A DNA stretch of 64,000 nt from a virus (Duplodnaviria; Heunggongvirae; Uroviricota; Caudoviricetes): the IMG/VR virus record IMGVR_UViG_3300021426_000065, positions 103,173-167,172 of that record; one strand, given 5' to 3'. Position numbers and translations under genes: made by a program. Each line of letters begins with the position of its first letter. Position 1 is the stretch's first letter. A model generated the notes under the pieces. That model searched no databases. It was not told the origin of the DNA and saw nothing but the letters and a program-made list of their open reading frames with translations. Below, one piece after another: positions 8,088 through 29,021 of the stretch.

Positions 8088-8426
8088 ATGAAGTTTTATA
8101 GTGAAAAGTTAAACCGTCTTTATGATAGTCAGGCGGAATGTGAAAAGGCTGAGTTTGAAGCAAAGGAAGCCGAAAATCGCGAGAAGATTCTCGCAGAGCG
8201 TAAGGCCGCGGAGGCCAAGGCGCAGAAGGAAAAGGAAGCCGCGGAACGCAAGATGATGGCCGCGGAAGTAGATGAAGCGTACAAGGCTATGGTTGCTGCG
8301 CAGAATGCGTATAAGACAAAGCTCGAAGCGTTTGTTAAGAAATATGGTTCTTACCACACTTCTCTAACTACAAAAGACATCCCTAGTCTTTTTGATATTT
8401 TCAATCCTTTTCTATTCAATCTATAA
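8088..8426 (+). CDS. Lys/Glu/Ala-rich coiled-coil protein.
   Basis: ORF with Shine-Dalgarno AAGGAGAGG, TAA stop, and a GC hairpin just after. Confidence 0.5.
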   Translation: MKFYSEKLNRLYDSQAECEKAEFEAKEAENREKILAERKAAEAKAQKEKEAAERKMMAAEVDEAYKAMVAAQNAYKTKLEAFVKKYGSYHTSLTTKDIPSLFDIFNPFLFNL

Positions 8427-8451
8427 GATTGAAGGGGCGTAAGCCCCGTAA

Positions 8452-8523
8452 TGAGGTATGGCCAAGTCGGTAAGGCACGAGACTTTGACTCTCGGATCGT
8501 TGGTTCAAGTCCAGCTACCTCAG
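8452..8523 (+). tRNA. tRNA-Gln, anticodon UUG.
   Basis: Perfect 7-bp acceptor stem tgaggta/tacctca. Anticodon stem cgaga/tctcg with loop ctTTGac. T arm gttgg-ttcaagt-ccagc. Confidence 0.7.
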
Positions 8524-8529
8524 TTATAT

Positions 8530-8617
8530 GAAAATGTGGCCGAGTGGCTTAAGGCGGCGGTCCTGAAAACCGTTGACCCGAGAGGGTCCGTAGGTTCAAA
8601 TCCTACCATTTTCGCCA
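8530..8617 (+). tRNA. tRNA-Ser, anticodon UGA, class II, with encoded CCA. Position 33 is C rather than U.
   Basis: Acceptor gaaaatg/cattttc. Long variable arm. Loop ccTGAaa. T arm gtagg-ttcaaat-cctac. G73 then CCA. Confidence 0.65.
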
Positions 8618-8640
8618 GTAGTGCCCAACACGCCTCTTAA

Positions 8641-9010
8641 TATGCGGACCACGTTGGGACATTATACGGGTTCTTCTCGCGGCCGCCCACCATGGGAAAG
8701 AGAAGCGAGCGTTCCGGCAGGCTTACGTGTAAACGCCGCTAGGAGTGCATCCCCTACAATAAAGTTGTTCTAGAGCAATAGATGCCGGTTTTCATAAGGG
8801 CCGTTATTTTTACTTATGATAGGGTGACATCAACCTATAAATCGTGGTCGTGGTGAACGGCATAGACAATCCGCACGGGTTATGCACGTAATAACATACG
8901 CAAGCGCACCGCGAGATTGTACGCACGCGATAAATAGCAACGCGAGCTATTTTCGCACTCTACCTTTCCACTTATATTAGGACTCCCAACCCTTGCGGTG
9001 GAAAGGTAGT
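8641..9010 (+). ncRNA. Unassigned GC-rich structured RNA block ending in a 12-bp hairpin (ctacctttccac / gtggaaaggtag).
   Basis: No ORF. GC content near 54% against about 35% for the genome. Multiple hairpins. Lies between a tRNA and a promoter. Confidence 0.3.
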
Positions 9011-9017
9011 TTAATAT

Positions 9018-9046
9018 TTGACTTATAATAAAAATTATGTTATAAT
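9018..9046 (+). promoter_or_regulatory. Sigma-70 consensus promoter, family copy.
   Basis: TTGACT 9018-9023, TATAAT 9041-9046, 17-nt spacer. Confidence 0.55.
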
Positions 9047-9070
9047 TTTTATAGAAACGGAGGGATAGGT

Positions 9071-9181
9071 TATGAAAAAGAACGAAAATGTGCAGATTTA
9101 TCTTGACGTAGAAGAAGAAATGGTTGAATGGTATTTTTTAGATGAACTTGGAATTGAAGCAGAAGTTTACGAAGATTAATA
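9071..9181 (+). CDS. Small acidic protein of 36 aa.
   Basis: Promoter, Shine-Dalgarno GGAGGG and ATG. Paralogous to the next small ORF. Confidence 0.4.
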
Positions 9182-9237
9182 TTTGACTAGAAATAAAAAT
9201 TATGATATAATAAATATGTTGAAAGGGGATAAGAAAG

Positions 9238-9366
9238 ATGATGGATGAAATTACTTGGTTATATCTGCATCAGGTGTATCTTTTCAAAGATGAAGATGAA
9301 TTTCAAGATTATCTTGATTATGTAAACTCTGAAGAAGAAATACTTGACACAGAAGAAAAATCGTGA
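9238..9366 (+). CDS. Small acidic protein of 42 aa, paralogue of 9071..9181.
   Basis: Own promoter copy at 9176, Shine-Dalgarno GGGGATAAG, shared YLD..EEE motifs. Confidence 0.4.
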   Translation: MMDEITWLYLHQVYLFKDEDEFQDYLDYVNSEEEILDTEEKS

Positions 9367-9395
9367 TATAATAAGTAAGGAAAGGCGGTAAGAGT

Positions 9396-9635
9396 ATGTA
9401 CACTTGGCATCCTGAATCTTGGAGTAAGCAAGCGCGAAATATGAGCAACAATGAGATTTGGTCTGTTAATAACGGATGGACTACTATTGAAGGCGCAATA
9501 CGTTTTTTCTCTAATTCTTATCGCGCCCCAATTATTCGACAGCGCGCGGCGAAGCGCTTCGGCCGCTATGTGCGTGCGGGTAAGGTAAAGAATAATTGGG
9601 AAGAATATTATAAGCATTATCCTGATGAAAAGTAA
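9396..9635 (+). CDS. Hypothetical protein of 79 aa.
   Basis: Track ORF, Shine-Dalgarno AAGGCGG, TAA stop. Confidence 0.45.
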   Translation: MYTWHPESWSKQARNMSNNEIWSVNNGWTTIEGAIRFFSNSYRAPIIRQRAAKRFGRYVRAGKVKNNWEEYYKHYPDEK

Positions 9636-9636
9636 T

Positions 9637-9709
9637 GGGGATGTAGCTCACTTGGTAGAGCAATTGCCCTGCAAGCAATAGGTAGTGTGTTCAAATCACA
9701 TCATCTCCA
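9637..9709 (+). tRNA. tRNA-Ala, anticodon UGC. Position 33 is C.
   Basis: The G3:U70 Ala identity pair is present. Anticodon stem attgc/gcaat, loop ccTGCaa. T loop ttcaaat. Confidence 0.75.
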
Positions 9710-9836
9710 TGACGCCGCGAGGATGACTGAGCGACGGCAATGAAGCGGAGTCATGACCGCATCGCTTTCCCGAGATACTGATAACATCAACTCGTTAAAG
9801 GTTGAAATAGAACCGTAATACGGATGTTATACGCGT

Positions 9837-9912
9837 AGCAGACAGGACAAACGGCTAAGTCACTAGGCTCATAACCTAAGAGGACCGAGTTCAACTCTCG
9901 GGTCTGCCACCA
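9837..9912 (+). tRNA. tRNA with anticodon CAU (Met, or Ile via lysidine), with an A1-C72 mismatch and encoded CCA.
   Basis: Anticodon stem ctagg/cctaa (four pairs plus a C27·A43 mismatch), loop ctCATaa. T arm ccgag-ttcaact-ctcgg. Acceptor (a)gcagac/gtctgc(c) then A CCA. Confidence 0.65.
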
Positions 9913-10100
9913 GGGCCAGCACTGCCCGAAATAGGTGCCGTGGGGAACGCCAGCGCGGAACTGGTGAGGGCGAATATCATTATCTAAAAGATTTGGTGCA
10001 AGACCAAACCAAGGATGGAGCGTAGAGAGCGCTTTTAGCATTTGATTCTCGGACGCGAGATAGCCCCGCTCAAGGGCGGCCACCCAAGAGCGTAAATTAA

Positions 10101-10169
10101 TACCAGTAGTATAGTGGGAGAATACTCGTCAGGTGGCGAGAGGTATTGGTTCGAATCCAATCTGGTGGT
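10101..10169 (+). ncRNA. tRNA-like element with acceptor-like and D-like stems and a canonical T arm (attgg-ttcgaat-ccaat), but no foldable anticodon arm.
   Basis: Hand folding gives six of seven acceptor pairs and a D stem agt/act with a GGG loop. The 27-43 region does not pair. Confidence 0.3.
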
Positions 10170-11010
10170 GGGTGATCACCTAAAAGCACAGAGTCGAGAG
10201 GCAACGGCTCTCTAAAGAAACACCGAGTCCATTCCATGAAATGGTAAAACTGGATGCATCCCCAGTATAACAAGATGCCGCGTTTATAAGCCGCAAGTTC
10301 GCAATAGCTTATACAGTTGCCCACTCTGTAAAAGGAGGCGCGCCGATAGACCGCAAGTTAAATAGTCTATGGATTGGGGCAATGACAGGACTTTGTGGCA
10401 AACTAAGCCCCACAACAAAAGGGATGGACCACAACGCTGAGGAAAACTGCGTAACAAAAGCGGTAGACATCCTAACAAGAATGTTACGACGTATAGGACA
10501 AGGCTCCACCAAAATAGATGGGAAGCGCTATACAGGTGCCCAAATGACGCAGTAGAAGTTTGAAGGCTTCTAGCCGTATAGCTAACGGTGTGTAACGTAA
10601 GAATGGGTTAAATGGAGTTTGAAGAACAGCCAACGCGCAAACTGAAAGGATAGGTATACGTCCATGTTGCTCGGCGCATTATAAAAGAGGAGCAAAATAA
10701 TGAGCTTTCAGCTTCCAGTAAACTGAATACAGTGGTTTTCAGGCTGAAAAGTACTCGGTAGAGCTTACGAGTATAAATAAATGTGAGTCCGCTCATAGAA
10801 GCGGGTTGCGACGAGCAACCAACGTCCACCTAGGGGACGTAATGATTTCTAGGCCGTGGTGAAAAACGGGAAGGCTAAGGAAAATGGATTGGAAGTCCTG
10901 GGCAGCTCTTAGGGTAGCTCCTTAAACTGAAAAACCAAAGCAGTCTCATCTACTGCTCCCGTCACATAGTGTAGCCACTCAGTTGCGGCTGAGTTATCAA
11001 ACCGCATTAT

Positions 11011-11082
11011 GCTCGGTTGGATTAACGGTTAGATCGGCGGCCCTTCAAGCCACAGACATGAGTTCAACTCTCATACCGAGTA
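11011..11082 (+). tRNA. tRNA-Glu, anticodon UUC. Position 33 is C.
   Basis: Acceptor gctcggt/accgagt. Loop ccTTCaa. T arm atgag-ttcaact-ctcat. Confidence 0.6.
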
Positions 11083-11146
11083 CTCTCACCTGAGCAAAAG
11101 CGGTGACTAAACCGATGCGCGGTTGACTGACCTTAAAGTCTTTAAT

Positions 11147-11223
11147 GGTCTCGTAGTGTAATTGGTTAACATCTCCCGCTGTCACCGGGAAGATTACGGA
11201 ATCGTACTCCGTCGAGACCGCCA
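11147..11223 (+). tRNA. tRNA-Asp, anticodon GUC, with a non-canonical T loop (atcgtac) and encoded CCA.
   Basis: Perfect acceptor ggtctcg/cgagacc. Anticodon stem cccg/cggg, loop ctGTCac. G73 then CCA. Confidence 0.65.
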
Positions 11224-11274
11224 ATTATATAACCTCCGCGGTCAGCCCGTTAGACCTAAAATGGCGGGGCACTT

Positions 11275-11347
11275 ACCCGGTTAGCTTAACTGGATAGAGC
11301 ACGCGGCTACGAACCGCGAGACAGGAGTTCAAGTCTTCTACTGGGTA
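11275..11347 (+). tRNA. tRNA-Arg, anticodon ACG.
   Basis: Acceptor acccggt/actgggt. Anticodon stem cgcgg/ccgcg, loop ctACGaa. T loop ttcaagt. Confidence 0.7.
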
Positions 11348-11521
11348 TTGTCGCTCCTTGCGCAGTTCAGAGCGACTCATAAATAGTTAACTGGCACCGC
11401 TAACATGGATTCGTGGGGACGGTCAACTACCACCGACGTGATGAATCATTATTGAGAACACGGTATGTGGCTTAGTGGAAAGCGGTATATAAAAAAGCAA
11501 AGCAACGGTCTCCACCAATAT

Positions 11522-11550
11522 TTGACTTTTACATAAAATTATGATATAAT
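11522..11550 (+). promoter_or_regulatory. Sigma-70 consensus promoter, family copy.
   Basis: TTGACT 11522-11527, TATAAT 11545-11550, 17-nt spacer. Confidence 0.55.
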
Positions 11551-11569
11551 ATTTATGTAAAAAGGAAAT

Positions 11570-11642
11570 GCCCGCTTAGCTCAGTCGGTAGAGCAATTGG
11601 CTGTTAACCAATGTGTCGGGAGTTCAAGTCTCTCAGCGGGCG
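11570..11642 (+). tRNA. tRNA-Asn, anticodon GUU.
   Basis: Acceptor gcccgct/agcgggc. D arm tagctcagtcggtagagca. Loop ctGTTaa. T loop ttcaagt. Confidence 0.75.
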
Positions 11643-11767
11643 CTCTTTTAGGCGAGTTAACTGCAAAATCTTTATAGGATGATTGAAAATGCTATTTATT
11701 TTCATAGAAAGTTCAAATCTTTCACACTTCCTCGCCTAGTATTTTAAATTAAAATGAGGTAATTAAC

Positions 11768-12307
11768 ATGAGTGATGCAAGGCTAAAGATTCTTCCCCCT
11801 TGGACAATCGTTATTCGTAAGTTTGAGGCCCTATTTGATGGCGATCCTCAGATTGCATGCAATTGTAATTTTAGTGGCTCTGCTCCTTCTATTGTATTTG
11901 CTTGCAATAATGGTGATAAGGTCGCGGCCCTACTATAGATTCTACCAGAAGAAGTTAGTTTCGGTAATATTAAACTAAAGGTAATGGTAGATGGCACCCC
12001 AAGTAATCGTGCTTTTACTAGCAAGGTAGAACTATTTGATACTGCTTTCAAGGGCAATCCCGCGTATGCGTATTCTGTTTGCCCCGCGGAAGAAGGGTAT
12101 CAGTGGATTGGAACTACATATGTTGTATTCAATAATTGCGTAGTTCAGTTCGCGGCGGATAATCTAAATGATTGTCATGGTATTATTAGCACCCTATATG
12201 AAACCATTGCTGATGAACTATTGACTGGTCCAGCGACAGAAGGTGTATTTTATAATACCAATGTTGAGCGCGCTAATCTTGGCAAGCCCCTTGGAGAGTG
12301 GCCGTAA
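11768..12307 (+). CDS. Hypothetical protein of about 179 aa with one in-frame TAG.
   Basis: Shine-Dalgarno TGAGGT then ATG 11768, in the same frame as track ORF 11984..12307 across a TAG. TAA stop. Confidence 0.5.
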
Positions 12308-12319
12308 TAGGAGAGTTAG

Positions 12320-12481
12320 ATGATAGTTGAATTAACAAATCATTGGTCTGAAATGAGTGGTCAATACGAAATTGAAGGAGTAGAAGAACATAATGATTAT
12401 TTTCGATTCTACTTCGGCAATGGTAAATGGTCAAAAGAATATAATATACCAACGTATACTTATAGAATTATACAAAAATGA
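12320..12481 (+). CDS. Small hypothetical protein.
   Basis: ORF with Shine-Dalgarno GGAGAG, TAA stop. Confidence 0.35.
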   Translation: MIVELTNHWSEMSGQYEIEGVEEHNDYFRFYFGNGKWSKEYNIPTYTYRIIQK

Positions 12482-12530
12482 ATTGTAATTCTTCTAACAT
12501 TTTTTGTTAAAACTAATTTATAGACCCGTC

Positions 12531-12638
12531 AGCAAATTACTTCTTTTTTTGACTGTTAATCAAAAGGTTATTGGTTCGAGTCCAATCGTATTCTACGGAA
12601 TATGTAGCTCAATTGGCAGAGCATTATAAGCGGGTCTA
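12531..12638 (+). ncRNA. Candidate Y-RNA-like (YrlA-like) RNA with a permuted tRNA-like module. The order is terminal stem, anticodon-like hairpin, T arm, loop-closed acceptor-like stem, D arm, terminal stem.
   Basis: The 9-bp terminal helix pairs tagacccgt (12531-12539) with gcgggtcta (12630-12638). Hairpin tttga-ctgttaa-tcaaa. T arm attgg-ttcgagt-ccaat. A 7-bp stem cgtattc/gaatatg is closed by tacg. D arm gctc-aattggca-gagc carries the GG needed for a T-loop contact. Confidence 0.4.
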
Positions 12639-12646
12639 GTTTTTAT

Positions 12647-12721
12647 CGCAACGTGACGCAGTTGGTTTAGCGTACCATTCTGATAAAATGGAAGTCCCTG
12701 GTCCGAGTCCAGGCGTTGCGA
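12647..12721 (+). tRNA. tRNA-Ile, anticodon GAU.
   Basis: Acceptor cgcaacg/cgttgcg. Anticodon stem ccatt/aatgg, loop ctGATaa. T arm cctgg-tccgagt-ccagg. Confidence 0.65.
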
Positions 12722-12900
12722 TTACCCGAGCGACGGGGCGCCGGTCGTAAAGTTCCCATGGCTACTTGTCCCGACAAGCGGTAGGACCGAAGTTGAGGAT
12801 TGGAACATTGAAAAGCACTGACAATATGCGTAGACCCGCACTATGGGGCGGCGAGCGAAGTGCCTAGCATAGGCACATTAACTGCAATGTAATTAGGGTA
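12722..12900 (+). ncRNA. Unassigned GC-rich structured RNA block. It contains the hairpin gtgcc-tagcata-ggcac and a second copy of the tagacccg motif.
   Basis: No credible ORF. High GC. Hairpins. Confidence 0.25.
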
Positions 12901-13105
12901 ACAGATGAGAATTGTGTTTAATGAGCACGATTCGTTGGATATTATTATATCCACCGACCAGTATGTCGAAATAACTACCATGGGCTGGCTGAGAGGCCCT
13001 GGTCCATCTTGGCATGTGGAAGATATCTACACTCATGAGGCCATCGCTTATCCAGCGATACATAAAAGGGAGATCGTCTGGCCACTCGACCGGTAGTGGC
13101 AATTC

Positions 13106-13176
13106 GCACCATTGGTGTAGCGGTAACATCTTTGCCTTCCAAGCAAATGTGGCCAGTTCAAATCTGGTATGGTGCT
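13106..13176 (+). tRNA. tRNA-Gly, anticodon UCC.
   Basis: Perfect acceptor gcaccat/atggtgc. Anticodon stem tttgc/gcaaa, loop ctTCCaa. T loop ttcaaat. Confidence 0.75.
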
Positions 13177-13180
13177 TTAA

Positions 13181-13296
13181 AGACGCATCAGCAATTATTC
13201 TTTTGCAAAGGGAGCCCGTCAAGTGTTGGTGCAACTCCAACCCACCGCAACATGCGGTGGTCGCTCAATAGTAGAAGCGCGGTTATAAGTGCGTCT
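13181..13296 (+). ncRNA. Second candidate Y-RNA-like element. Terminal pairing gacgca/tgcgtc encloses a T-arm-like hairpin (gttgg-tgcaact-ccaac) and a loop-closed 7-bp stem (ccaccgc-aacat-gcggtgg).
   Basis: Same module order as 12531-12638. No ORF. Sits between tRNA-Gly and tRNA-Leu. Confidence 0.3.
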
Positions 13297-13304
13297 TGTT
13301 TTAT

Positions 13305-14116
13305 GCCGCTGTGGTGGAATGGCAGACACAGCAGACTTATATAATTTGAGCACTTGGATACGAAAGTTCCAATGTGAATGTTCCCTAATTCGGCGAAAGT
13401 CCAAATTGGATTACGCCGAGCTAAATGGGATTACGCTAAAAAAATTTTTTCCAGAGAGTAAATTAAAATGGTTTCCTTGTAATGTAGTCACTCTTATAAT
13501 GAGGTGATGAATATGCGAAATGATATTATTGAACGCAAAGAAGAAATTCTCCAATGGATTAATGAAGGACAATCAAAAGCGAATATGGCGCGCGAACTTA
13601 GGTGTAAGCCTGAAACTTTAAATCGTTATCTTAATCTTTGGAATATAACTTACGATGGAAATCAAAGTGGTAAAGGTACTACAAAAATCAGTAATCGTGG
13701 TATGAATTTAATGGAATATCTTGCTGAAAGTAAAGATATTCAAACTAATAAAATTCGCCGCAAATTACTTGAAGAAGGATATAAAGAATATAAATGTGAA
13801 TGTTGCGGGAATACCGAATGGATGGGTAAGCCCATTCCGCTTGAAGTTCATCATAAAGATGGAAACCGCAATAACAATACATTAGAAAATTTTGAACTTC
13901 TTTGTCCTAATTGCCATGCTTTTACTGATAGTTATCGTGGAAAAAATAGCGCAATCTCTAAATGTGTAGAGACTATATAGGAACCACCTAAGTCATAAGA
14001 TATGGTGAAAACATAGTCCAGACTACAACGCAGTAATGCGGCCATAGTAATATGGAGTAGTAAGAAAATCTGCTGCTCTTATGAGCGTGCCGGTTCAAGT
14101 CCGGCCAGCGGCACCA
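13305..14116 (+). tRNA. tRNA-Leu, anticodon UAA, class II. The gene is interrupted between U34 and A35 by a 726-nt group I intron (13339-14064) that carries an HNH homing endonuclease ORF. Exon 1 is 13305-13338 and exon 2 is 14065-14116, ending in CCA.
   Basis: Exon 1 has acceptor gccgctg, a 3-bp D stem and gcaga-ctt. Exon 2 is aaaa-tctgc, then a variable-arm hairpin gctc-ttat-gagc, T arm gccgg-ttcaagt-ccggc, cagcggc, A73, CCA. Acceptor and anticodon stems pair perfectly across the intron. The intron starts atataatttgagc and ends gtagtaaG. It has P/Q/R/S-like elements (aattcggcg, cgccgagc, ccagagagtaaat, catagtccagac). The 5' end resembles the cyanobacterial tRNA-Leu intron (AAAUAAUUGAGCC, recalled from memory). 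Confidence 0.6.
13504..13998 (+). CDS. HNH homing endonuclease encoded inside the tRNA-Leu intron. The frame reads through TAG at 13978 to TAA 13996-13998.
   Basis: Motif CECCGN...EVHHKDGNRNNNTLENFELLCPNCH. Promoter-like TATAAT and Shine-Dalgarno GAGGTGA upstream. Confidence 0.75.
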
Positions 14117-14119
14117 AAT

Positions 14120-14193
14120 GTCCTCGTAACAGAATTGGCATATGTACCGCGCTCAAAACGCGGGTTCTGTGGGTCCGACTCCCACCGAGGATA
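14120..14193 (+). tRNA. tRNA with anticodon CAA (nominally Leu) but a class I short variable arm.
   Basis: Acceptor gtcctcg/cgaggat. Perfect anticodon stem ccgcg/cgcgg, loop ctCAAaa. T arm gtggg-tccgact-cccac. A73. Confidence 0.55.
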
Positions 14194-14194
14194 C

Positions 14195-14268
14195 GTCCAG
14201 TTGGCGCAATTGGCAGACGCGCTACGTTTAGGCCGTAGTTTTTGAAGGTTCAAATCCTTTACTGGACA
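14195..14268 (+). tRNA. tRNA with anticodon UAG (nominally Leu, reading CUA) but a class I short variable arm.
   Basis: Perfect acceptor gtccagt/actggac. Anticodon stem ctacg/cgtag, loop ttTAGgc. T loop ttcaaat. A73. Confidence 0.55.
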
Positions 14269-14275
14269 TTAGTAT

Positions 14276-14304
14276 TTGACTTTTCTCCAAAATTATTATA
14301 TAAT
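14276..14304 (+). promoter_or_regulatory. Sigma-70 consensus promoter, family copy.
   Basis: TTGACT 14276-14281, TATAAT 14299-14304, 17-nt spacer. Confidence 0.55.
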
Positions 14305-14330
14305 ATATATGTAAGAAAGGGGCGAATGGA

Positions 14331-14510
14331 ATGAAATTACTTTTTCTTAATAAAGAAGAAAAGAAAGCATTGATTAAATTATTAGTTCCTTTGGCTACTT
14401 CTTCAAAAGGTAATTATGAATTAACAACTATTTTAGAAAAATTGGATTGGAAAGCATATGAATATGCTTTTAACCATCCTAAAGAAGATAAGTATTTGAC
14501 TTTTCCTTAA
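14331..14510 (+). CDS. Small hypothetical protein of 59 aa. The next promoter copy is embedded in its 3' end.
   Basis: Shine-Dalgarno AAAGGGG then ATG. The ORF ends ...KYLTFP, overlapping TTGACTTTTCC. Confidence 0.35.
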   Translation: MKLLFLNKEEKKALIKLLVPLATSSKGNYELTTILEKLDWKAYEYAFNHPKEDKYLTFP

Positions 14511-14537
14511 AATTATGTTATAATAAATATATAATGA

Positions 14538-14806
14538 AGCCCGCTAGCATAATGGTTAATGCACCGGTCTCTAGTCTAAATTGGAGCCTTATATAGTAAT
14601 ATATAAGTGAAAACGCCGCTAATTCGGTGAAGGCTTAACTGCTAATACCGAGCAAGGATTTTTAATCTATGTGTAGAGACTTTATACGGCGCATCCTTAT
14701 AGGATGAAGATAAAGTCCGGACCACGATGCGAAAGCAACGCGTGTGAAGAAAACCGTAACACCTCTGAAGTGGGTTATCTCCGTTCGATCCGGAGGCGGG
14801 CCGCCA
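14538..14806 (+). tRNA. Candidate amber-suppressor tRNA, anticodon CUA, class II, G73, CCA encoded. The gene is split in the anticodon loop after U35 by a 177-nt group I-like intron (14573-14749). Exon 1 is 14538-14572 and exon 2 is 14750-14806.
   Basis: Exon 1 is agcccgc-ta-gcat-aatggtta-atgc-a-ccggt-ctCT. Exon 2 is Aaa-accgt, a 21-nt variable arm (acct/gggt stem), T arm ctccg-ttcgatc-cggag, gcgggcc, G, CCA. Six of seven acceptor pairs form. The spliced loop ctCTAaa matches the A37-A38 pattern of most tRNAs in the island. The intron starts agtctaaattggagcc with a GGAG internal guide for the ..CUCU exon end. It ends gtgtgaaG, the same ..aaG/aaaa junction as the tRNA-Leu intron, and carries P/Q/R/S-like segments (aattcgg, ccgagcaagg, gtagagact, aagataaagtccggacc). 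Confidence 0.5.
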
Positions 14807-14874
14807 TCTTTAAGCGACCATTACAGCAATATTTTATTTATAACTGAAAATTATAAAATATGGTCGCGTTTTTT

Positions 14875-14947
14875 CGGGGTATAGCGCAGTTGGTAGCGCG
14901 CCAGTTTTGGGAACTGGATGCCGCAAGTTCGAGCCTTGCTACTCCGA
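14875..14947 (+). tRNA. tRNA-Pro, anticodon UGG.
   Basis: Acceptor cggggta/tactccg with one G-U pair. Anticodon stem ccagt/actgg, loop ttTGGga. T loop ttcgagc. Confidence 0.65.
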
Positions 14948-14970
14948 CTTATAAAAAGAAAGGAATCAAT

Positions 14971-15336
14971 ATGACAGCGCAAGAAGTAGTTTGGTTTATT
15001 AATCACAAATACGGTGAACAGGCGTATATTGTAGAAACAAACGACCAAATCTTACTATTTACGAAAGAATCCAAATGGATAATCAATAAAAATGATTATT
15101 CTAAGTTTCATTGCTATACTTTATTTCATTCTAATAATACGCAAGGAAATGGATTCCATGTACAAATGCGCGGCAATCATATTGATTTTTTAGTTTATCA
15201 AGCTATCATGCATGATAATAAAGAAATTTTTTCTAATCGTGAAACCTGGGATAATTTTCAAAATGCTTGGGAATTATTTCTTCTTGGACGAAAAATTGAA
15301 GCAGAAATTAATGCGTGGGAATGGATGACAAAATAA
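14971..15336 (+). CDS. Hypothetical protein of about 121 aa.
   Basis: Shine-Dalgarno AAAGGAA then ATG 14971. Track ORF 14860.. starts inside tRNA-Pro, so the downstream start is preferred. Confidence 0.45.
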   Translation: MTAQEVVWFINHKYGEQAYIVETNDQILLFTKESKWIINKNDYSKFHCYTLFHSNNTQGNGFHVQMRGNHIDFLVYQAIMHDNKEIFSNRETWDNFQNAWELFLLGRKIEAEINAWEWMTK

Positions 15337-15355
15337 GATTGGAGCATTAGAATAT

Positions 15356-15562
15356 ATGAATGATGAAAAATATATAGATTCTATTTGTATCAATGGTTAG
15401 AAATATAAAATTAAAGCGTCATTAATTGAAGCTTATCCTATTAACTGTAAAAATTGTGGCGCGTTGTTTGAATTAAAATATGGGTCTGGACGATGTGATT
15501 ATTGCGGCACGTATTATACTACTGAGTTTAAAATAGTAGAAAAACCATTCAAGGAGAATTAA
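15356..15562 (+). CDS. Zinc-ribbon protein (CxxC...CxxC) with one in-frame TAG.
   Basis: ATG 15356. The frame is open through TAG to TAA. Confidence 0.4.
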
Positions 15563-15581
15563 CCGCGGAAGGTAAAATGAG

Positions 15582-15902
15582 ATGATTGAAGGAGTAGTTG
15601 TTTTATCAGAATGGACAAGCATGTCCGCACTGGGTTGTCTTATGCTAACTATCGGTTTAACTTTTTTTATTCTATTCGCTTGGATTGCAATGTTCAATAA
15701 AGGAGTTATTAGTAACAATTGGTTCTGTGTATTTGTTATTGGGTCTATTATTGGAATTGGCTTATTCGTCGGTTCATTTTTCATGCCCAAGGACCATGGG
15801 TACAAAATAACTTTAACTGATGATGCTAACTTTTCAGAAATAGTAAAGCATTATGAAATTATTAGTACCGATAACTTGATATTAAAAGTAAGAGAGCGGT
15901 GA
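15582..15902 (+). CDS. Small membrane protein with two transmembrane helices.
   Basis: Track ORF with hydrophobic stretches, TGA stop. Confidence 0.45.
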   Translation: MIEGVVVLSEWTSMSALGCLMLTIGLTFFILFAWIAMFNKGVISNNWFCVFVIGSIIGIGLFVGSFFMPKDHGYKITLTDDANFSEIVKHYEIISTDNLILKVRER

Positions 15903-15908
15903 AGTGGG

Positions 15909-16112
15909 ATGAATGAAACAGGCTTGAAAAAGACTCGAAAGTATTATCGTCTATGCGGAATGTGCGGAAAAAGGCATGAACAGAAACAAATGAAAAGAAC
16001 GACACATAGCAGAAATGGATGGCTTTGTAAAGATTGCTATGAATCAGATGAATATTTAGATTTTAATACCAATACCGGAGACCCAATTGGATGGGATTCT
16101 AATGAGTGGTAA
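15909..16112 (+). CDS. C4 zinc-finger protein.
   Basis: CGMCGK...CKDCY. Confidence 0.45.
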   Translation: MNETGLKKTRKYYRLCGMCGKRHEQKQMKRTTHSRNGWLCKDCYESDEYLDFNTNTGDPIGWDSNEW

Positions 16113-16151
16113 AAGAATAAAATGAAATTATATACTTCCTATTGGGCATAG

Positions 16152-16574
16152 GTGCGCAATTTTCCAAAAAATCTTATCGGTCTAAATACTACTGTTTTTC
16201 CGCCGAAGTGGCGCCCGCTTGGACAAGACGGCCGCGGCATATGGGTAATTGATTGCCCACCATTAAAGCCTGGCGCGGAATGCGATGGACTATGTAATGG
16301 GAAATGCGCCCCTAAACATCCACAAAATTGTTCTTTTCTACAAGTATATTCAAATCAATTAGATAAAATTGATTTTAAACTTTTCATGTCTAAATTATTT
16401 AGCTTACATGAACGTATCGCATACGATAATGATATAAAAGACTATGATTTCGCATTTATTGTATTTGAAAAATATGACAACCCTTGTAGTGAGCGATGGC
16501 CAATACAAGAGTGGTTTAGAAAAAATGGAGCGACAATAGAAGAATGGACCAAAGAGAATATAATAAACAACTAA
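16152..16574 (+). CDS. Cys-rich hypothetical protein.
   Basis: Track ORF, TAA stop. Confidence 0.45.
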   Translation: MRNFPKNLIGLNTTVFPPKWRPLGQDGRGIWVIDCPPLKPGAECDGLCNGKCAPKHPQNCSFLQVYSNQLDKIDFKLFMSKLFSLHERIAYDNDIKDYDFAFIVFEKYDNPCSERWPIQEWFRKNGATIEEWTKENIINN

Positions 16575-16597
16575 TTGAAAAATATCCATTTCTAATG

Positions 16598-16992
16598 CCA
16601 TATAATATATGGACTGGCGAGCCAATTGAAGATTATGATTATGAATATATATGGCTTGATGATATGCCAGACGGCTGGCGCAACGCATTTGGCTTACAAA
16701 TGTGCGAAGAATTAAAGCAGGCCCTAAACAAGCAGCCATAGGTTTTTGCAGATACCTTTAAAATTATTCAAATTAAAGAAAAGTTTGGCGGTCTACGCTT
16801 CTATACTAATTGGACAACACCAGAGATAAATGAAGTAATTAGTAAATATGAAAATATGAGTTATTCAATTTGTATTCGTTGTGGTGCGCCCGCGAAGTGG
16901 ATTACAAAAGGATGGATTTCTCCTTTCTGTGATAAGTGTAAGCCCGATGAAAATTGCGTAGAAATTGAAAAGTTCTACGAAGAAAATACTTG
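16598..16992 (+). CDS. Hypothetical protein with one in-frame TAG (at 16739) and C-terminal CxxC pairs.
   Basis: Track ORF 16544..16741 continues in frame past TAG to TGA 16990-16992. The start is placed at the first ATG beyond the overlap with the upstream gene. Confidence 0.4.
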
Positions 16993-17048
16993 ACTTATAG
17001 TAAAAATTATAGTATAATTATTATACAAAGAGGAAAGGAGCCAAGAAA

Positions 17049-17405
17049 ATGCGTAATTACAGTATGAAGTCTAAAAATCGTAGGAATCATCAGCGGTGGC
17101 TAAATCAGTATTGTAAAATGGTAAATAAGTATGTCGCGGAAGATCCACTCTGGCTCGGTCGCTTTGTAATGGAACAAGTCAGAACTAGAATGGAATGGTT
17201 TGAGGACGGTAGTGGCGGCCTCATGTATTGCGAGCTTCGTTTCCGCGATAAGAAAACCGGAAAGACTAAAATCTGGGATACCGATTGCCTTGAACTAGAA
17301 TATAAGTCTGGCTTTAAAATGAATGATTTTATTGTTAGTGATTGTGCTGTTTGGGAAAATGAACGCCCATATGAAGAAGTGAGGGATTATAGAAATGTCA
17401 AGTGA
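17049..17405 (+). CDS. Hypothetical protein.
   Basis: Promoter copy at 16990, Shine-Dalgarno GGAAAGGAG, TGA stop. Confidence 0.5.
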   Translation: MRNYSMKSKNRRNHQRWLNQYCKMVNKYVAEDPLWLGRFVMEQVRTRMEWFEDGSGGLMYCELRFRDKKTGKTKIWDTDCLELEYKSGFKMNDFIVSDCAVWENERPYEEVRDYRNVK

Positions 17406-17598
17406 AGAAAATAACGGACAGATTGAGTTTACTTTTTGGCCCGGCGGCGATAATCCGCATGAGCGACGAACAGAACTAAGCTTTGATATTCCAAGCGATG
17501 TCGGTATTGATGAACTATGTGATTGCTTTACTTCGTTCCTTGTCGCACTTGGGTATCATCCAAATACTATTAATAAGTATATTCCCGGGAGCTATTAA
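17395..17598 (+). CDS. Hypothetical protein.
   Basis: ORF overlapping the upstream stop, TAA stop. Confidence 0.4.
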   Translation: MSSEENNGQIEFTFWPGGDNPHERRTELSFDIPSDVGIDELCDCFTSFLVALGYHPNTINKYIPGSY

Positions 17599-17607
17599 GC
17601 TCTCTAT

Positions 17608-17679
17608 GGGACATTAGTTCAACGGTTAGAACGGTGGTCTTATAAACCATTAACGATAGTCCGACTCTATCATGTCCTA
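17608..17679 (+). tRNA. tRNA-Ile, anticodon UAU.
   Basis: Acceptor gggacat/atgtcct. Anticodon stem gtggt/accat, loop ctTATaa. T arm gatag-tccgact-ctatc. Confidence 0.6.
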
Positions 17680-17850
17680 CCACAATAGCGGCTAATCTTT
17701 GCGAAGATTAGGAAGGATGAAAACCACTTCCGCCAAACTATTGGCAGCAGCAAACACCTATGCGTAGGTAAAGGCAAATAGTCGCGACGTTGGTAATTAG
17801 ACCCGAAGCAAGAGGCCGAGTAGTATCCGCAACTCTTCCGCCGCGATTGT
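17680..17850 (+). ncRNA. Unassigned structured RNA block containing the hairpins ctaatctt-tgcg-aagattag and ggaag...cttcc, plus a third copy of the tagacccg motif.
   Basis: No ORF. GC-rich hairpins between two tRNAs. Confidence 0.25.
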
Positions 17851-17932
17851 GCCCGTTTAACTCAACGGACAGAGTATCTGACTTCTAATCAGAAAATATA
17901 GGTTCAATTCCTATAACGGGTATTTAAGTAGA
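17851..17932 (+). tRNA. tRNA-Arg, anticodon UCU.
   Basis: Acceptor gcccgtt/aacgggt. Anticodon stem tctga/tcaga, loop ctTCTaa. T loop ttcaatt. Confidence 0.7.
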
Positions 17933-17989
17933 AGGCGCGGCAGTACAGCGCCCCGAGAGGACAAAACCACACAGTATTCTACTTTTTAT

Positions 17990-18060
17990 GCGCCTGTAAC
18001 ATAGTGGTAGTGTTGTAGACTTTTAATCTATAAGCGCGGTTTCGATTACCGCCAGGCGCA
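17990..18060 (+). tRNA. tRNA-Lys, anticodon UUU.
   Basis: Perfect acceptor gcgcctg/caggcgc. Loop ctTTTaa. T arm gcggt-ttcgatt-accgc. Confidence 0.65.
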
Positions 18061-18138
18061 TTATGAGGTAGCGTTAGAATAGCTAACTAACGAGATAAAG
18101 ATGCTCCTACATCGGCTCAATTTTATATAATCATAGGA

Positions 18139-18801
18139 GTGATTAATATGATAGGATATATTTATAAAATTACTAATGATATAAATAATAAGGTTTATAT
18201 TGGAAAAACTTTAAAATCTATAACAAAGCGATTTGCAGAGCATATTCATGAAAGTACTCGTAAAAGAAGCGAGAAACGACCATTGTACATGGCAATGAAT
18301 AAATATGGAATTGAACATTTTTTCATAGAATTGATAGAAGAAGTTGATTCTTCCATATTAGAAGAACGTGAAATTTATTGGATTCAACAATACAACAGTT
18401 ATCATTATGGTTATAATGCTACTTATGGTGGAGATGGCAAAATATTATATGATGATAATATAAGACAAGAAATGATAAATGAATATAAAGATGGACAATT
18501 AATAATAGAAATTGCTACTAAATACAATTGTGATGTAAGTATTGTTCATAGTGCAATAGTCTCCGCGGGATTAGACGTAAATAGCAATAAAAATAAACGT
18601 CTTATGATTGGCATAAGTGCTTATAAAGATGGAAAATTAATTCAATCATTTGAATCACATAAACTTGCTGGACAATGGCTGTATACTAATGGATATACAC
18701 AGTCTCAAAATTGGGATAATATATCAGCAACCCTTGGCCGTGCAAGAGATAATCCTAATAGAACTGCTTATGGATTTATATGGAAAACAATAGGGGTATA
18801 A
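18139..18801 (+). CDS. GIY-YIG homing endonuclease, free-standing within the tRNA island.
   Basis: Motif GYIYKITNDINNKVYIGKT, then ...Y.G.K, C-terminal DNA-binding region. -10 TATAAT and Shine-Dalgarno upstream. Confidence 0.75.
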   Translation: MINMIGYIYKITNDINNKVYIGKTLKSITKRFAEHIHESTRKRSEKRPLYMAMNKYGIEHFFIELIEEVDSSILEEREIYWIQQYNSYHYGYNATYGGDGKILYDDNIRQEMINEYKDGQLIIEIATKYNCDVSIVHSAIVSAGLDVNSNKNKRLMIGISAYKDGKLIQSFESHKLAGQWLYTNGYTQSQNWDNISATLGRARDNPNRTAYGFIWKTIGV

Positions 18802-18867
18802 GATAATTAGCAGTCGGGGAATCTCCAAAATTCTCAGTTCCTAGGCAGAATAGGATACCCCTGCCAA

Positions 18868-18941
18868 GCGCGTCCAATTCTCGTCGGCCGGGAGCGGGCC
18901 TGCAAAGCCCCTGTTAGTTGGTTCAACTCCAACTGGACGCT
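18868..18941 (+). tRNA. tRNA-Cys, anticodon GCA.
   Basis: Acceptor gcgtcca/tggacgc. Loop ctGCAaa. T arm gttgg-ttcaact-ccaac. Confidence 0.6.
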
Positions 18942-18961
18942 TCAACAAAGGAGAAATAATT

Positions 18962-27791: not shown

Positions 27792-29021
27792 ATGTTGAAT
27801 GCGAATCAAGAACGCGAGTTGGCCTATGTAGTAATTGTTGATGGTATTGAACCTATTCCAGGCTACGACCGCGTAGAACATGCCATTATTGGTGGATGGC
27901 GAGTTATTGTACAGAAAGGCCAATTTAAGGTTGGCGACCCCGCGATTTATTTTGAAATTGACTCTCGCGTACCCTCTGATAAGGAGTGCTTCGCATTTCT
28001 TGAAAAGCGCAATTATAAGGTTAAGACCTTAAAAATGTGTAAAACCATTTCTCAGGGTTTGCTTATGCACGCAACTGATTTTGGCTGGAATTGGTATATA
28101 GATGAAGGAAAAAATATTCCATATATTTATAATAATCAAACAGAAGAGCGTTATTATCCTGATAATGAATCTCGTTTCCTAACCAAGCAACTTGGCGTAA
28201 CCTATGCGGATGAAGAAGATAATCAGCGTAAAGCCGCGTCAGTAGACAAGTATAAGAAAATGGCTTCTCGTCATCCCAATATCTTCAAGAAGCCTTTTGT
28301 TCGCTGGCTAATGAAGTATAAGTTTGGCCGCGGAATTATGTTCTTCTTCTTCGGCAAAAAGAAAGACAAGAAGGGCGGATGGCCCGCTTGGGTCCAAAAG
28401 ACAGATGAAGAACGGGTGCAGAATATGCCTTGGATTCTTACTGACGAAGGCGATTGGGTAGCAACTGAAAAGATTGATGGCACTTCAACCACTTTTACTA
28501 TGAAGCGTGGTAAGTTTGGTAAAAAGTCTTTCTATGTTTGTTCTCGCAATGTATGTTTTGATAGCGTAGATAAACCTTGTTATTATGATAGTAATGTTTA
28601 TTGGGAGATGGCTAAAAAGTATAATATTTTTGATGTGCTTTCTAAAATGCTAGACAGCAATCCCTCAGAAGAATGGATTACTATTCAGGGAGAAACCTAT
28701 GGTGAAGGCGTGCAGCGCCGTGAATATTCTATGAGCGGTCATGATTTCGCAGCTTTCAACCTTGTATTCTCTACCAAAGGACGCGTAGGCACTATTGAAA
28801 TGATTGGTATTCTTTCTCAATACAATGTTCCTTGTGTACCTGTTGTTGAAGAAAAGATGAAAATTAATCAATTTGAAAATGTAGATGCTATCCTAAATTA
28901 CGCAGAAGGCAATTCCAAGGTAGATGGCCAGCCCCGTGAAGGCATCGTCTTCCGCACTCTTGATGGCACCAAGTCTTTTAAAGCAGTAAGTAATAGTTTT
29001 CTACTAAAATATCATGGATAA
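27792..29021 (+). CDS. ATP-dependent polynucleotide ligase, probably an RNA ligase (Rnl-like).
   Basis: Nucleotidyltransferase motif I EKIDGTS, motif IV EGIVFR, motif V lysines. 409 aa with an extra N-terminal domain. A separate DNA ligase exists at 36742. Confidence 0.5.
   Translation: MLNANQERELAYVVIVDGIEPIPGYDRVEHAIIGGWRVIVQKGQFKVGDPAIYFEIDSRVPSDKECFAFLEKRNYKVKTLKMCKTISQGLLMHATDFGWNWYIDEGKNIPYIYNNQTEERYYPDNESRFLTKQLGVTYADEEDNQRKAASVDKYKKMASRHPNIFKKPFVRWLMKYKFGRGIMFFFFGKKKDKKGGWPAWVQKTDEERVQNMPWILTDEGDWVATEKIDGTSTTFTMKRGKFGKKSFYVCSRNVCFDSVDKPCYYDSNVYWEMAKKYNIFDVLSKMLDSNPSEEWITIQGETYGEGVQRREYSMSGHDFAAFNLVFSTKGRVGTIEMIGILSQYNVPCVPVVEEKMKINQFENVDAILNYAEGNSKVDGQPREGIVFRTLDGTKSFKAVSNSFLLKYHG

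What the first reader, a model, noticed from the sequence alone, without database searches (positions are those of the whole stretch)
8530..11082. Non-universal C33 in three tRNAs and near-universal A37-A38
tRNA-Ala (loop ccUGCaa, with the G3:U70 identity pair confirming the assignment), tRNA-Ser(UGA) (ccUGAaa) and tRNA-Glu (ccUUCaa) carry C where U33 is almost invariant. Nearly all tRNAs in the island, including both spliced intron-containing ones, have AA at positions 37-38. This may reflect phage-specific decoding tuning or a modification-enzyme requirement.
Basis: seen in the sequence. Interest (0 to 1): 0.5.

Follow-up and report, generated by a model that had tools for sequence, protein, structure and literature searches.

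The report
Phage tRNAs with C at position 33
Three transfer RNAs of an uncultured rumen-type phage really do carry a C where nearly every known elongator tRNA has a U, and the same change recurs and persists in many phage tRNAs, so it is a real and apparently undescribed phage trait whose purpose (most likely escape from host enzymes that cut or modify the anticodon loop) is still unproven.

Summary
Confirmed for C33, ordinary for A37-A38. ARAGORN and the Rfam tRNA model both give the loops CCUGAAA (Ser-UGA, C33 = 8563), CCUGCAA (Ala-UGC, 9669) and CCUUCAA (Glu-UUC, 11043). The other 18 or so canonical-loop tRNAs of the island have U33.

No alternative register puts a U at 33. Twelve distinct C33 tRNA-Glu sequences from relatives fit the cloverleaf at 95% pairing, with 15 of 21 pairs showing compensatory changes. 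Slid registers reach only 26-43%.

C33 is heritable. It is present in independent assemblies at 98% and about 90% identity, and in diverged relatives. It is recurrent in Glu, Gly, Ala, Ser, Val, Lys, Arg and Pro tRNAs. It is enriched in phage tRNAs: 3.8% of 504 viral sequences, 7.5% of about 612 from metagenome tRNA-array contigs, and 2 of 74 in three cultured phages. It was absent from 228 bacterial tRNAs.

Within this phage family C33 occurs only next to a wobble U34, but that link fails in the wider sample. Other "universal" positions (U8, T54, U55, A58) also deviate at 3-5% in phage tRNAs.

The best reading is an adaptive loop variant that escapes a host enzyme acting at U33/U34. An RNA-repair cassette lies next to the island. 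Tolerated drift remains a serious rival. AA at 37-38 is seen in 18 of 21 window tRNAs, against 74% of phage and 90% of bacterial tRNAs sampled.

The parts
8530..8617 (+). tRNA-Ser(UGA), type II with a long variable arm and encoded CCA. Loop CCUGAAA: C32 = 8562, C33 = 8563, anticodon 8564-8566, A37-A38 = 8567-8568.
   Evidence: ARAGORN. Rfam tRNA 56.1 bits with alignment. The same C33 is seen in L002 and L037 (98% relatives) and in a diverged orthologue, L027. 43 other viral contigs and 121 bacterial hits with the same anticodon stem have T33.
9636..9710 (+). tRNA-Ala(UGC) with G3:U70. Loop CCUGCAA: C32 = 9668, C33 = 9669, anticodon 9670-9672, A37-A38 = 9673-9674.
   Evidence: ARAGORN. Rfam 64.6 bits. 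C33 is also in L001 and L002. Near-identical tRNAs in L003 and L004 have U33.
11011..11083 (+). tRNA-Glu(UUC). Loop CCUUCAA: C32 = 11042, C33 = 11043, anticodon 11044-11046, A37-A38 = 11047-11048. C.A mismatch in the anticodon stem; G1.U72.
   Evidence: ARAGORN. Rfam 53.2 bits. C33 is kept in 12 distinct diverged homologues with compensatory stem changes.
8452..20431 (+). tRNA island: about 22 tRNA genes, all on the + strand. All except the three above have U33. Includes Leu(UAA) with a 726-nt intron (13305-14116) and a CUA suppressor with a 177-nt intron (14538-14806).
21208..29021 (+). Context, not part of the tRNAs: an RNA-repair-type cassette.
- P-loop polynucleotide-kinase-like protein, 21208-21708
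- metallophosphoesterase, 21686-22282
- Ro60-like DUF2828/DUF7788 RNA-binding protein, 22846-24321
- RlaP nucleotidyltransferase, 24760-25590
- DUF5662, 25587-26174
- RNA ligase, 27792-29021
   Evidence: Pfam. PHROGs phrog_505 polynucleotide kinase, phrog_968 RNA ligase and phrog_850 RNA-binding protein.

Best explanation
The three genes encode working elongator tRNAs of an uncultured phage related to contigs from rumen and gut viromes. In them the near-universal U33 has been replaced by C, and the change is inherited.

Most likely mechanism (inferred, not shown): U33 is the nucleotide immediately 5' of the bond that wobble-directed anticodon nucleases cut. PrrC cuts 5' of the wobble base. LshCas13a cuts mainly at the first anticodon nucleotide and prefers U. 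U33 is also read by at least one enzyme that modifies U34. A C at 33 would make the phage's replacement tRNAs poor substrates for a host enzyme that acts on the U33-U34 step. The tRNAs could still decode the phage's most used codons, because C is the mildest replacement of the U-turn base.

On this reading the phage keeps translation going when host tRNAs are cut. The neighbouring kinase, phosphoesterase and RNA ligase cassette would be a second line that repairs cut RNA.

Shown: the fold, the C33 bases, their inheritance, their recurrence, and their enrichment in phage tRNAs.
Inferred: that selection rather than tolerance keeps them, and that the selective agent is an anticodon-loop nuclease or modifier.
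For: - Real and heritable. Two independent tRNA detectors give the same fold. C33 is identical in independent assemblies at 98% and about 90% nucleotide identity.
- Long retention. Twelve distinct C33 tRNA-Glu sequences differ at many stem pairs, yet 15 of 21 pairs change in a compensatory way. Of 36 unique C33 Glu sequences, 29 have a C33 sequence as nearest neighbour.
- Recurrence. Near-identical tRNA pairs differ at position 33 only or almost only: Ala (window versus L003/L004), Gly-UCC (L004 versus L005), Arg-UCU (L125 versus L076). Parsimony needs about 13 U/C switches on the Glu tree, against 30 for shuffled labels.
- Only C replaces U in well-folded tRNAs.
- Enrichment. C33 is found in 19 of 504 viral, 46 of about 612 metagenome-array and 2 of 74 cultured-phage tRNAs, against 0 of 228 bacterial. 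For one tRNA-Glu type, C33 is in 19 of 31 viral contigs and 49 of 120 metagenome contigs.
- In this phage family every C33 sits next to U34: 19 of 24 C33 tRNAs in the first 130 viral loci, odds ratio 5.3, p = 4.5e-4, and odds ratio 3.8, p = 0.005 without the bait tRNAs.
- The C33 tRNAs match heavily used phage codons. GAA is 83% of Glu codons and GCA is the top Ala codon.
- An RNA-repair cassette lies next to the island. Phage tRNA repair enzymes are the known answer to PrrC (abstract of PMC2610378).
- Literature. LshCas13a cuts tRNAs "mainly at first anticodon nucleotides" with a U preference, and its best substrates Lys, Glu, Gln and Thr all have U34 (PMC11042736). Phage tRNAs carry loop changes predicted to block anticodon nucleases (PMC10264068). 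Phage tRNAs rescue phages from PrrC and retron-Eco7 (PMC11555353).
Against: - No nuclease, host or cleavage assay is available. The host is unknown.
- In the wider metagenome sample C33 shows no link to U34: 15 of 196 against 31 of 416. A U33-U34-specific enzyme therefore cannot be the general cause.
- In the same phage tRNAs other universal positions deviate at similar rates: U8 3%, T54 4%, U55 to C 5.2%, A58 4%. This fits general relaxation of constraint.
- One tested nuclease, K. lactis gamma-toxin, cuts a C33 stem-loop as well as the wild type (PMC2275089). C33 does not protect in every case.
- The retention argument is modest, because trees built from 72-nt sequences are noisy.
Confidence: 0.4

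Rival explanations
1. Tolerated drift. Phage tRNAs are under weaker purifying selection than cellular ones because the host supplies a full set and the phage tRNAs act only briefly. The mildest change of U33, a transition to C, therefore accumulates as a nearly neutral variant with no dedicated function.
For: Other universal positions deviate at 3-5% in the same 405 phage tRNAs (U8, T54, U55, A58), against 0-0.4% in 228 bacterial tRNAs. Three window tRNAs also have C55. There is no U34 association in the metagenome sample. A C33 stem-loop behaves like the wild type towards gamma-toxin, which suggests a similar loop shape (PMC2275089).
Against: A large C33 clade of tRNA-Glu stays C33 while its stems turn over by compensatory change. 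In the family, all eight or so independent origins fall in U34 tRNAs. C33 is the majority state for one tRNA-Glu type in viral contigs (19 of 31 contigs). The affected tRNAs read the phage's commonest codons.
Confidence: 0.3
2. Decoding or modification tuning. C33 changes the geometry of the U-turn, or blocks or redirects modification of the neighbouring U34. This would alter wobble reading, or the tRNA's dependence on host modification enzymes.
For: C33 is restricted to U34 tRNAs in this family. In eukaryotes U33 is the trigger for Elongator. [quoted passage not shown]
Against: The affected tRNAs span both bacterial U34 modification classes and both two-codon and four-codon boxes, so no single decoding change fits all of them. 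Bacteria do not use Elongator. The metagenome sample shows C33 beside C34, G34 and A34 as well. Nothing here measures decoding.
Confidence: 0.2
3. Non-translational role. The C33 molecules would be decoys or competitive inhibitors that bind a tRNA-targeting enzyme without being cut, rather than adaptors for translation.
For: Only indirect evidence. The same island holds clearly non-canonical tRNA-like RNAs (10100-10169 with an abnormal loop; a YrlA-like hit at 12546-12655), and a Ro60-like protein is encoded nearby.
Against: Identity elements are intact: G3:U70 in Ala, the long variable arm in Ser, and CCA or discriminator bases. Acceptor and T stems are maintained by compensatory change. The anticodons match the phage's preferred codons. 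No second, U33 copy of the same anticodon was found in the window.
Confidence: 0.06
4. Artefact: a misfold, pseudogenes or assembly error.
For: The window's tRNA-Glu has a C.A mismatch in the anticodon stem and the lowest score of the three (53.2 bits).
Against: Two detectors agree. Covariation supports the register. The same bases occur in independent assemblies. All three scores are well above the gathering threshold.
Confidence: 0.02

Closest known systems
Phage-encoded tRNAs with anticodon-loop substitutions proposed or shown to escape tRNA-targeting defences (mycobacteriophage tRNAs versus VapC, PMC10264068; T5-like tRNA-Tyr versus retron-Eco7 and phage tRNA-Lys versus PrrC170, PMC11555353)
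   Same: These are phage tRNA islands that supply replacement tRNAs. The difference from the cellular consensus lies in the anticodon loop, next to a known nuclease cleavage site. RNA-repair genes lie nearby, as in the T4 Pnkp/Rnl1 response to PrrC.
   Different: The published cases involve positions other than 33. A search of the text and supplements of PMC10264068 found no mention of U33 or C33. Here no host tRNA, no nuclease and no resistance test is available, so membership is a hypothesis.
C33 in eukaryotic cytoplasmic initiator tRNA-Met (listed with Candida tRNA-Ser G33 as the only exceptions to U33 in PMC5041475)
   Same: A natural, conserved C at position 33 in a functional tRNA. This shows that C33 is compatible with ribosome function.
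   Different: Those are initiators that bind the P site directly. The tRNAs here are elongators (Ser, Ala, Glu, and in relatives Gly, Val, Lys, Arg, Pro, Ile) in viruses of bacteria.
Wobble-directed anticodon nucleases: PrrC, RloC and the collateral activity of Cas13a (PMC2610378, PMC3458546, PMC11042736)
   Same: They cut at or beside the wobble nucleotide, that is at the 33/34 junction. Cas13a prefers U and prefers U34 tRNAs, including tRNA-Glu(UUC). This matches the C33-next-to-U34 pattern in this phage family.
   Different: These are candidate selective agents, not homologues of the feature. None was looked for or found in a host, and the effect of C33 on them is untested.

Membership tests
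Canonical elongator tRNA (Rfam RF00005) | Cloverleaf with a 7-nt anticodon loop, and a score above the family's gathering score | tested here: met
   56.1, 64.6 and 53.2 bits against a gathering score of 29. ARAGORN gives the same cloverleaves. Covariation in homologues supports the register.
Canonical elongator tRNA (Rfam RF00005) | U at position 33 (U-turn) | tested here: not met
   C at 8563, 9669 and 11043.
Canonical elongator tRNA (Rfam RF00005) | Purine at 37, T-loop TTCRA, U8, and identity elements | tested here: met
   A37 is present in all three. T-loops are TTCAAAT, TTCAAAT and TTCAACT. U8 is present. Ala has G3:U70, and Ser has a long variable arm and G73.
Phage tRNAs that evade anticodon nucleases through loop mutations | Encoded by a phage, in a tRNA cluster | tested here: met
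   The window carries a phage gene set and has 230 relatives in IMG/VR viral contigs.
Phage tRNAs that evade anticodon nucleases through loop mutations | The loop differs from the host's cognate tRNA at or next to the cleavage site | tested here: inconclusive
   The host is unknown. The loops differ from the universal U33 and from 228 of 228 sampled bacterial tRNAs. Position 33 borders the PrrC and Cas13a cleavage site (PMC11042736).
Phage tRNAs that evade anticodon nucleases through loop mutations | The host encodes a nuclease that cuts the cognate host tRNA, and the phage tRNA resists it | not testable with these tools
   This needs host identification and cleavage assays.
T4-type tRNA repair (polynucleotide kinase/phosphatase plus RNA ligase), as context | Kinase, 3' end-healing phosphoesterase and RNA ligase encoded together | tested here: met
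   - Kinase: AAA_33 / phrog_505 polynucleotide kinase at 21208-21708.
- Phosphoesterase: Metallophos at 21686-22282.
- Ligase: RNA_ligase / phrog_968 at 27792-29021.
The phosphatase is of the calcineurin type, not the T4 HAD type, and activity is untested.
Eukaryotic initiator tRNA with C33 | CAU anticodon and initiator features | tested here: not met
   The anticodons are UGA, UGC and UUC. The window's CAU tRNA (9837-9909) has U33.

The most novel reading that the evidence does not exclude
U33-to-C is a dedicated and widespread phage countermeasure. It makes phage-encoded elongator tRNAs uncleavable by, or invisible to, host enzymes that read the universal U33, such as HEPN anticodon nucleases of the PrrC/RloC/Cas13 type or U34-modification-dependent toxins, while the ribosome still accepts them. 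This would reveal both an unrecognised escape route and a functional tolerance of the U-turn base in bacterial elongation.
Probability: 0.3. Interest if true: 0.75.

Novelty: new variant of a known kind. Interest (0 to 1): 0.55.

Why it matters
U33 is treated as invariant in elongator tRNAs, and it underlies the U-turn that presents the anticodon. Finding natural bacterial-virus elongator tRNAs with C33 says two things. These tRNAs are inherited, recurrent and aimed at the phage's commonest codons, so bacterial ribosomes probably tolerate C33 better than textbooks imply. It also gives a concrete, cheap test of the idea that phage tRNAs are built to survive host tRNA-cutting defences: swap one base and assay cleavage by PrrC, RloC or Cas13. 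If C33 protects, it would be a simple design rule for nuclease-resistant tRNAs and a marker for predicting which host defences a phage faces.

Tried and rejected
- Alternative registers. Shifting the anticodon stem by one base gives no pairing for any of the three tRNAs by inspection. In homologues the slid structures pair only 26-43%. Rejected.
- Close GenBank relative. Megablast of 8300-21000 found nothing. The gyrase A gene has at most 32% identity to any GenBank phage. The best hit for the marker protein 6098-6892 is Clostridium phage CS266P3 at 51%. This is only a weak host hint, because the protein is a tail domain.
- Host clue from the tRNA-Ser anticodon arm. The same arm occurs in many bacterial phyla, so it is uninformative.
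- U34 link as a general rule. It holds in the rumen phage family but fails in the metagenome sample, so it is not a general rule.
- C32 link. 22 of 24 C33 tRNAs have C32, but C32 is about 75% of all tRNAs in the sample. Not significant.
- Literature. Searches for C33/U33C in phage tRNAs found no description. The supplements of PMC10264068 do not mention position 33. Subscription-only papers were not searchable.
- A reading in which U34 acts as the U-turn base and the anticodon shifts by one. This would make Ala read Cys codons, and similar errors for the others, and it conflicts with the intact identity elements. Rejected on logic and not tested.
- C-to-U RNA editing of C33. Nothing supports it and it is not testable here.
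- BLAST of a high-GC metagenome tRNA array (L281) against GenBank phages. It gave only single-tRNA hits. I used these to fetch three cultured phages as a small control.
Full report
**What is there.** The window (36.6% G+C) carries a tRNA island on the + strand from 8452 to 20431. ARAGORN finds 17 intron-less tRNAs plus two with introns. Rfam adds a CAU tRNA at 9837-9909, a weak tRNA-like element at 10100-10169 and a Cys-like tRNA near 18870-18940.

The surrounding genes are phage-like and have no close GenBank relative. Gyrase A and B, DnaB, DNA ligase, PIN-PhoH, a tail-protein domain and GIY-YIG/HNH endonucleases are present. Megablast of the island finds nothing, and the best protein identities are 32-51%. 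The relatives are IMG/VR contigs of up to about 190 kb. A sub-threshold hit to the Rfam "cow-rumen-3" motif and rumen-labelled MAG titles among the tRNA-Ser hits suggest a rumen or gut habitat, but that is inference.

**The observation.**
- Ser(UGA) 8530-8617 has the loop CCUGAAA, with C33 at 8563.
- Ala(UGC) 9636-9710 has G3:U70 and the loop CCUGCAA, with C33 at 9669.
- Glu(UUC) 11011-11083 has the loop CCUUCAA, with C33 at 11043.

The Rfam scores are 56.1, 64.6 and 53.2 bits against a threshold of 29. Every other canonical-loop tRNA in the island has U33. Shifting the stem register gives no pairing.

The decisive check uses homologues. RNAalifold on nine tRNA-Glu homologues (six C33, three U33) predicts the same 7-nt loop without guidance, and 15 of 20 pairs show compensatory change. 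On 12 distinct C33 tRNA-Glu sequences the cloverleaf pairs 95.2% of cells. None of 500 shuffles reached that value, and structures slid by 1-3 columns pair only 26-43%.

Assembly error is unlikely, because the same bases occur in independent assemblies (L001, L002, L037, L050, L051).

**A37-A38.** AA at 37-38 is present in 18 of 21 canonical-loop tRNAs. This includes both intron-containing ones. Their exon junctions are fixed by an intron-less allele of Leu(UAA) in 98%-identical relatives and, for the CUA tRNA, by the terminal G of the intron.

This is ordinary. AA is upper-case consensus in the Rfam model. It occurs in 74% of 428 phage tRNAs and 90% of 234 bacterial tRNAs sampled here. It corresponds to the known substrate motifs of universal A37-modifying enzymes: 36-UAA-38 for t6A (abstract of PMC13276492) and A36A37A38 for MiaA (from my own knowledge).

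**Is C33 inherited?** Contigs at 98% identity (L002/L056, L037/L052) and about 90% identity (L001/L066) keep C33 in the same tRNAs. More distant relatives, found through the protein at 6098-6892 (230 relatives), show a mosaic:
- L057 and L070 have C33 in Glu and Gly(UCC).
- L060 has it in Glu and Lys(UUU).
- L061, L062 and L064 have it in Glu.
- L004/L065 have it in Gly only.
- L067 has it in Val(UAC).
- L125 has it in Arg(UCU).
- The contig behind L027/L061 has a diverged Ser(UGA) with C33.

Several C33 tRNAs have near-identical U33 counterparts. Examples are Ala in the window lineage versus L003/L004, Gly in L004 versus L005/L059/L063, and Arg in L125 versus L076. These are recent, independent U-to-C changes.

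tRNA-Glu shows the opposite pattern. A large set of diverged sequences all keep C33 while their stems have turned over. On 106 unique tRNA-Glu(UUC) sequences, a neighbour-joining tree with position 33 masked needs about 13 state changes, against about 30 for shuffled labels. Of 36 C33 sequences, 29 have a C33 nearest neighbour. The state is therefore both recurrent and long-lived. Trees built from 72-nt sequences are noisy, so these numbers are rough.

**How unusual is it?** Counts are of unique sequences, with the tRNAs I used as search baits excluded.

| Sample | C33 |
|---|---|
| Viral loci | 19 of 504 (3.8%) |
| tRNA-dense metagenome contigs | 46 of about 612 (7.5%) |
| Three cultured phages | 2 of 74 |
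| Bacterial tRNAs | 0 of 228 |

The two cultured-phage cases are tRNA-Ile(GAU) of Caulobacter phage CcrBL9 and of the T4-like Erwinia phage Cronus. In bacteria, the tRNA-Ser bait was T33 in 121 of 121 genomes.

For one tRNA-Glu type (GCC[C/U]UUCAAGC with T-loop GUUCAACUC), C33 is the majority in IMG/VR. It is present in 19 of the 31 contigs, and in 49 of the first 120 metagenome hits.

Grosjean and Westhof list C33 only for eukaryotic initiators and G33 for Candida tRNA-Ser (PMC5041475). I found no paper describing C33 in phage tRNAs. That search covers only open-access text.

**Patterns that bear on mechanism.**
- In the first 130 viral loci, 19 of 24 C33 tRNAs have U34 (odds ratio 5.3, p = 4.5e-4). 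Without baits the odds ratio is 3.8 (p = 0.005). Within the phage family all eight or so independent events are in U34 tRNAs.
- This does not hold in the metagenome sample, where the counts are 15 of 196 U34 against 31 of 416 others. There C33 is also common in Ile(GAU), Arg(CCG), Asp and Gly(GCC).
- Phage tRNAs are generally less canonical. In the same 405 tRNAs U8, T54, U55 and A58 deviate in 3-5% (U55 to C in 5.2%), against 0-0.4% in the bacterial sample. Three window tRNAs have C55.
- The C33 tRNAs read codons the phage uses heavily. GAA is 83% of Glu codons and GCA is the commonest Ala codon.
- Directly downstream of the island lies an RNA-repair-type cassette. It holds a polynucleotide-kinase-like P-loop protein, a metallophosphoesterase, a Ro60-like RNA-binding protein, an RlaP nucleotidyltransferase, DUF5662 and an RNA ligase.

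**Explanation.** The secure part is that these are intact, inherited elongator tRNAs with a real C33, and that C33 is a recurrent trait of phage tRNAs.

For the cause I favour escape from a host enzyme acting at the 33/34 step (confidence 0.4). PrrC-type nucleases cut 5' of the wobble base and are countered by phage tRNA repair enzymes (PMC2610378 abstract; the cleavage position is from my own knowledge). LshCas13a cuts tRNAs mainly at the first anticodon nucleotide with a U preference, and it favours Lys, Glu, Gln and Thr tRNAs, all with U34 (PMC11042736). Phage tRNAs with altered loops are proposed or shown to bypass such defences (PMC10264068, PMC11555353).

Against this reading, no host or nuclease is known here. 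C33 does not protect a stem-loop from gamma-toxin (PMC2275089). The general looseness of phage tRNAs makes tolerated drift a serious rival (0.3). A third possibility (0.2) is that C33 changes U34 modification or wobble reading. In eukaryotes U33C blocks Elongator's action on U34 (PMC11096365), but bacteria use other enzymes and the affected tRNAs do not share one decoding need. The decoy (0.06) and artefact (0.02) readings are unlikely.

**Comparison and novelty.** The closest known kind is [quoted passage not shown]. The feature shares the setting and the location next to a cleavage site. The defining functional tests, a sensitive host tRNA and a resistant phage tRNA, could not be run, so membership remains a hypothesis. 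Position 33 has not, to my knowledge, been reported as such a site. I therefore rate it a new variant of a known kind, of moderate interest (0.55). It would be higher if a one-base swap is shown to confer nuclease resistance.

Noticed in passing
window 11768-12307 and 14538-14806: The ORF 11768-12307 has an in-frame TAG at 11936-11938, with the same reading frame on both sides. The island encodes a tRNA with anticodon CUA, a long variable arm and a 177-nt intron. Relatives L005 and L049 carry intron-less CUA tRNAs. Together these suggest that TAG is read as an amino acid in part of this phage's genes.
   Followed up: partly
window 13305-14116 (intron about 13339-14064; HNH ORF 13504-13980): tRNA-Leu(UAA) is split by a 726-nt intron between U34 and A35, the classic tRNA-Leu group I intron site, and the intron carries an HNH endonuclease ORF. 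Relatives at 98% identity (L050, L051, L056) have the exact intron-less allele, so the intron is a presence/absence polymorphism. Rfam did not report a group I intron here.
   Followed up: partly
window 21208-29021: An RNA-repair-type cassette lies next to the tRNA island. It contains a polynucleotide-kinase-like protein, a metallophosphoesterase, a Ro60-like DUF2828/DUF7788 RNA-binding protein, an RlaP nucleotidyltransferase, DUF5662 and an RNA ligase.
   Followed up: partly
window 12546-12655 and 22846-24321: There is a sub-threshold Rfam hit to YrlA, a Y RNA-like RNA with a tRNA-like domain (32.9 bits, E = 5e-4), inside the tRNA island. A Ro60-like protein gene lies 10 kb downstream. This may be a phage Ro/Y-RNA pair.
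   Followed up: no
window 12909-13008: There is a sub-threshold but significant match to the Rfam motif cow-rumen-3 RNA (60.2 bits against a gathering score of 86.7; E = 1e-11). The function of this motif is unknown.
   Followed up: no
window 10100-10169; L001 4189-4260: A tRNA-like element (Rfam tRNA 35.8 bits) has normal acceptor and T arms but an abnormal anticodon arm, with a 6-nt loop CAGGUG or a 4-nt loop. It is conserved in the roughly 90% relative L001.
   Followed up: partly
window 12646-12722, 14120-14194, 17608-17682, 11147-11223: Other universal tRNA positions deviate as well. C55 replaces U55 in the T-loops of Ile(GAU), Leu(CAA) and Ile(UAU) (TCCGAGT, TCCGACT). tRNA-Asp has the unusual T-loop ATCGTAC. 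Across 405 phage tRNAs, U55 to C occurs in 5.2%.
   Followed up: partly
window 30447-31526: A short homologue of adenylosuccinate synthetase (359 aa; Pfam Adenylsucc_synt, E = 8e-17) is of the size of phage PurZ. This raises the possibility of 2-aminoadenine DNA. It was not examined further.
   Followed up: no
window 43221-45798: There are two adjacent xanthine/uracil permease family genes (428 and 435 aa) in a phage genome. This is an unusual auxiliary transport function.
   Followed up: no
window 8618-9000 and 9910-11010: ORF-poor spacers between the tRNAs are richer in G+C than the rest of the window (about 47% against 36.6%). 8614-10307 is 91% conserved in L001, while 10307-11007 is not. 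These may be structured RNAs, but there was no Rfam match.
   Followed up: no
L281, L301, L304, L367, L369, L378, L393, L395 (metagenome contigs): High-G+C contigs carry 25-28 tRNAs in 3.5-5 kb. Each has several C33 tRNAs: Ala-UGC, Leu-UAA, Ile-GAU and Arg-CCG. This is a different lineage showing the same trait.
   Followed up: partly
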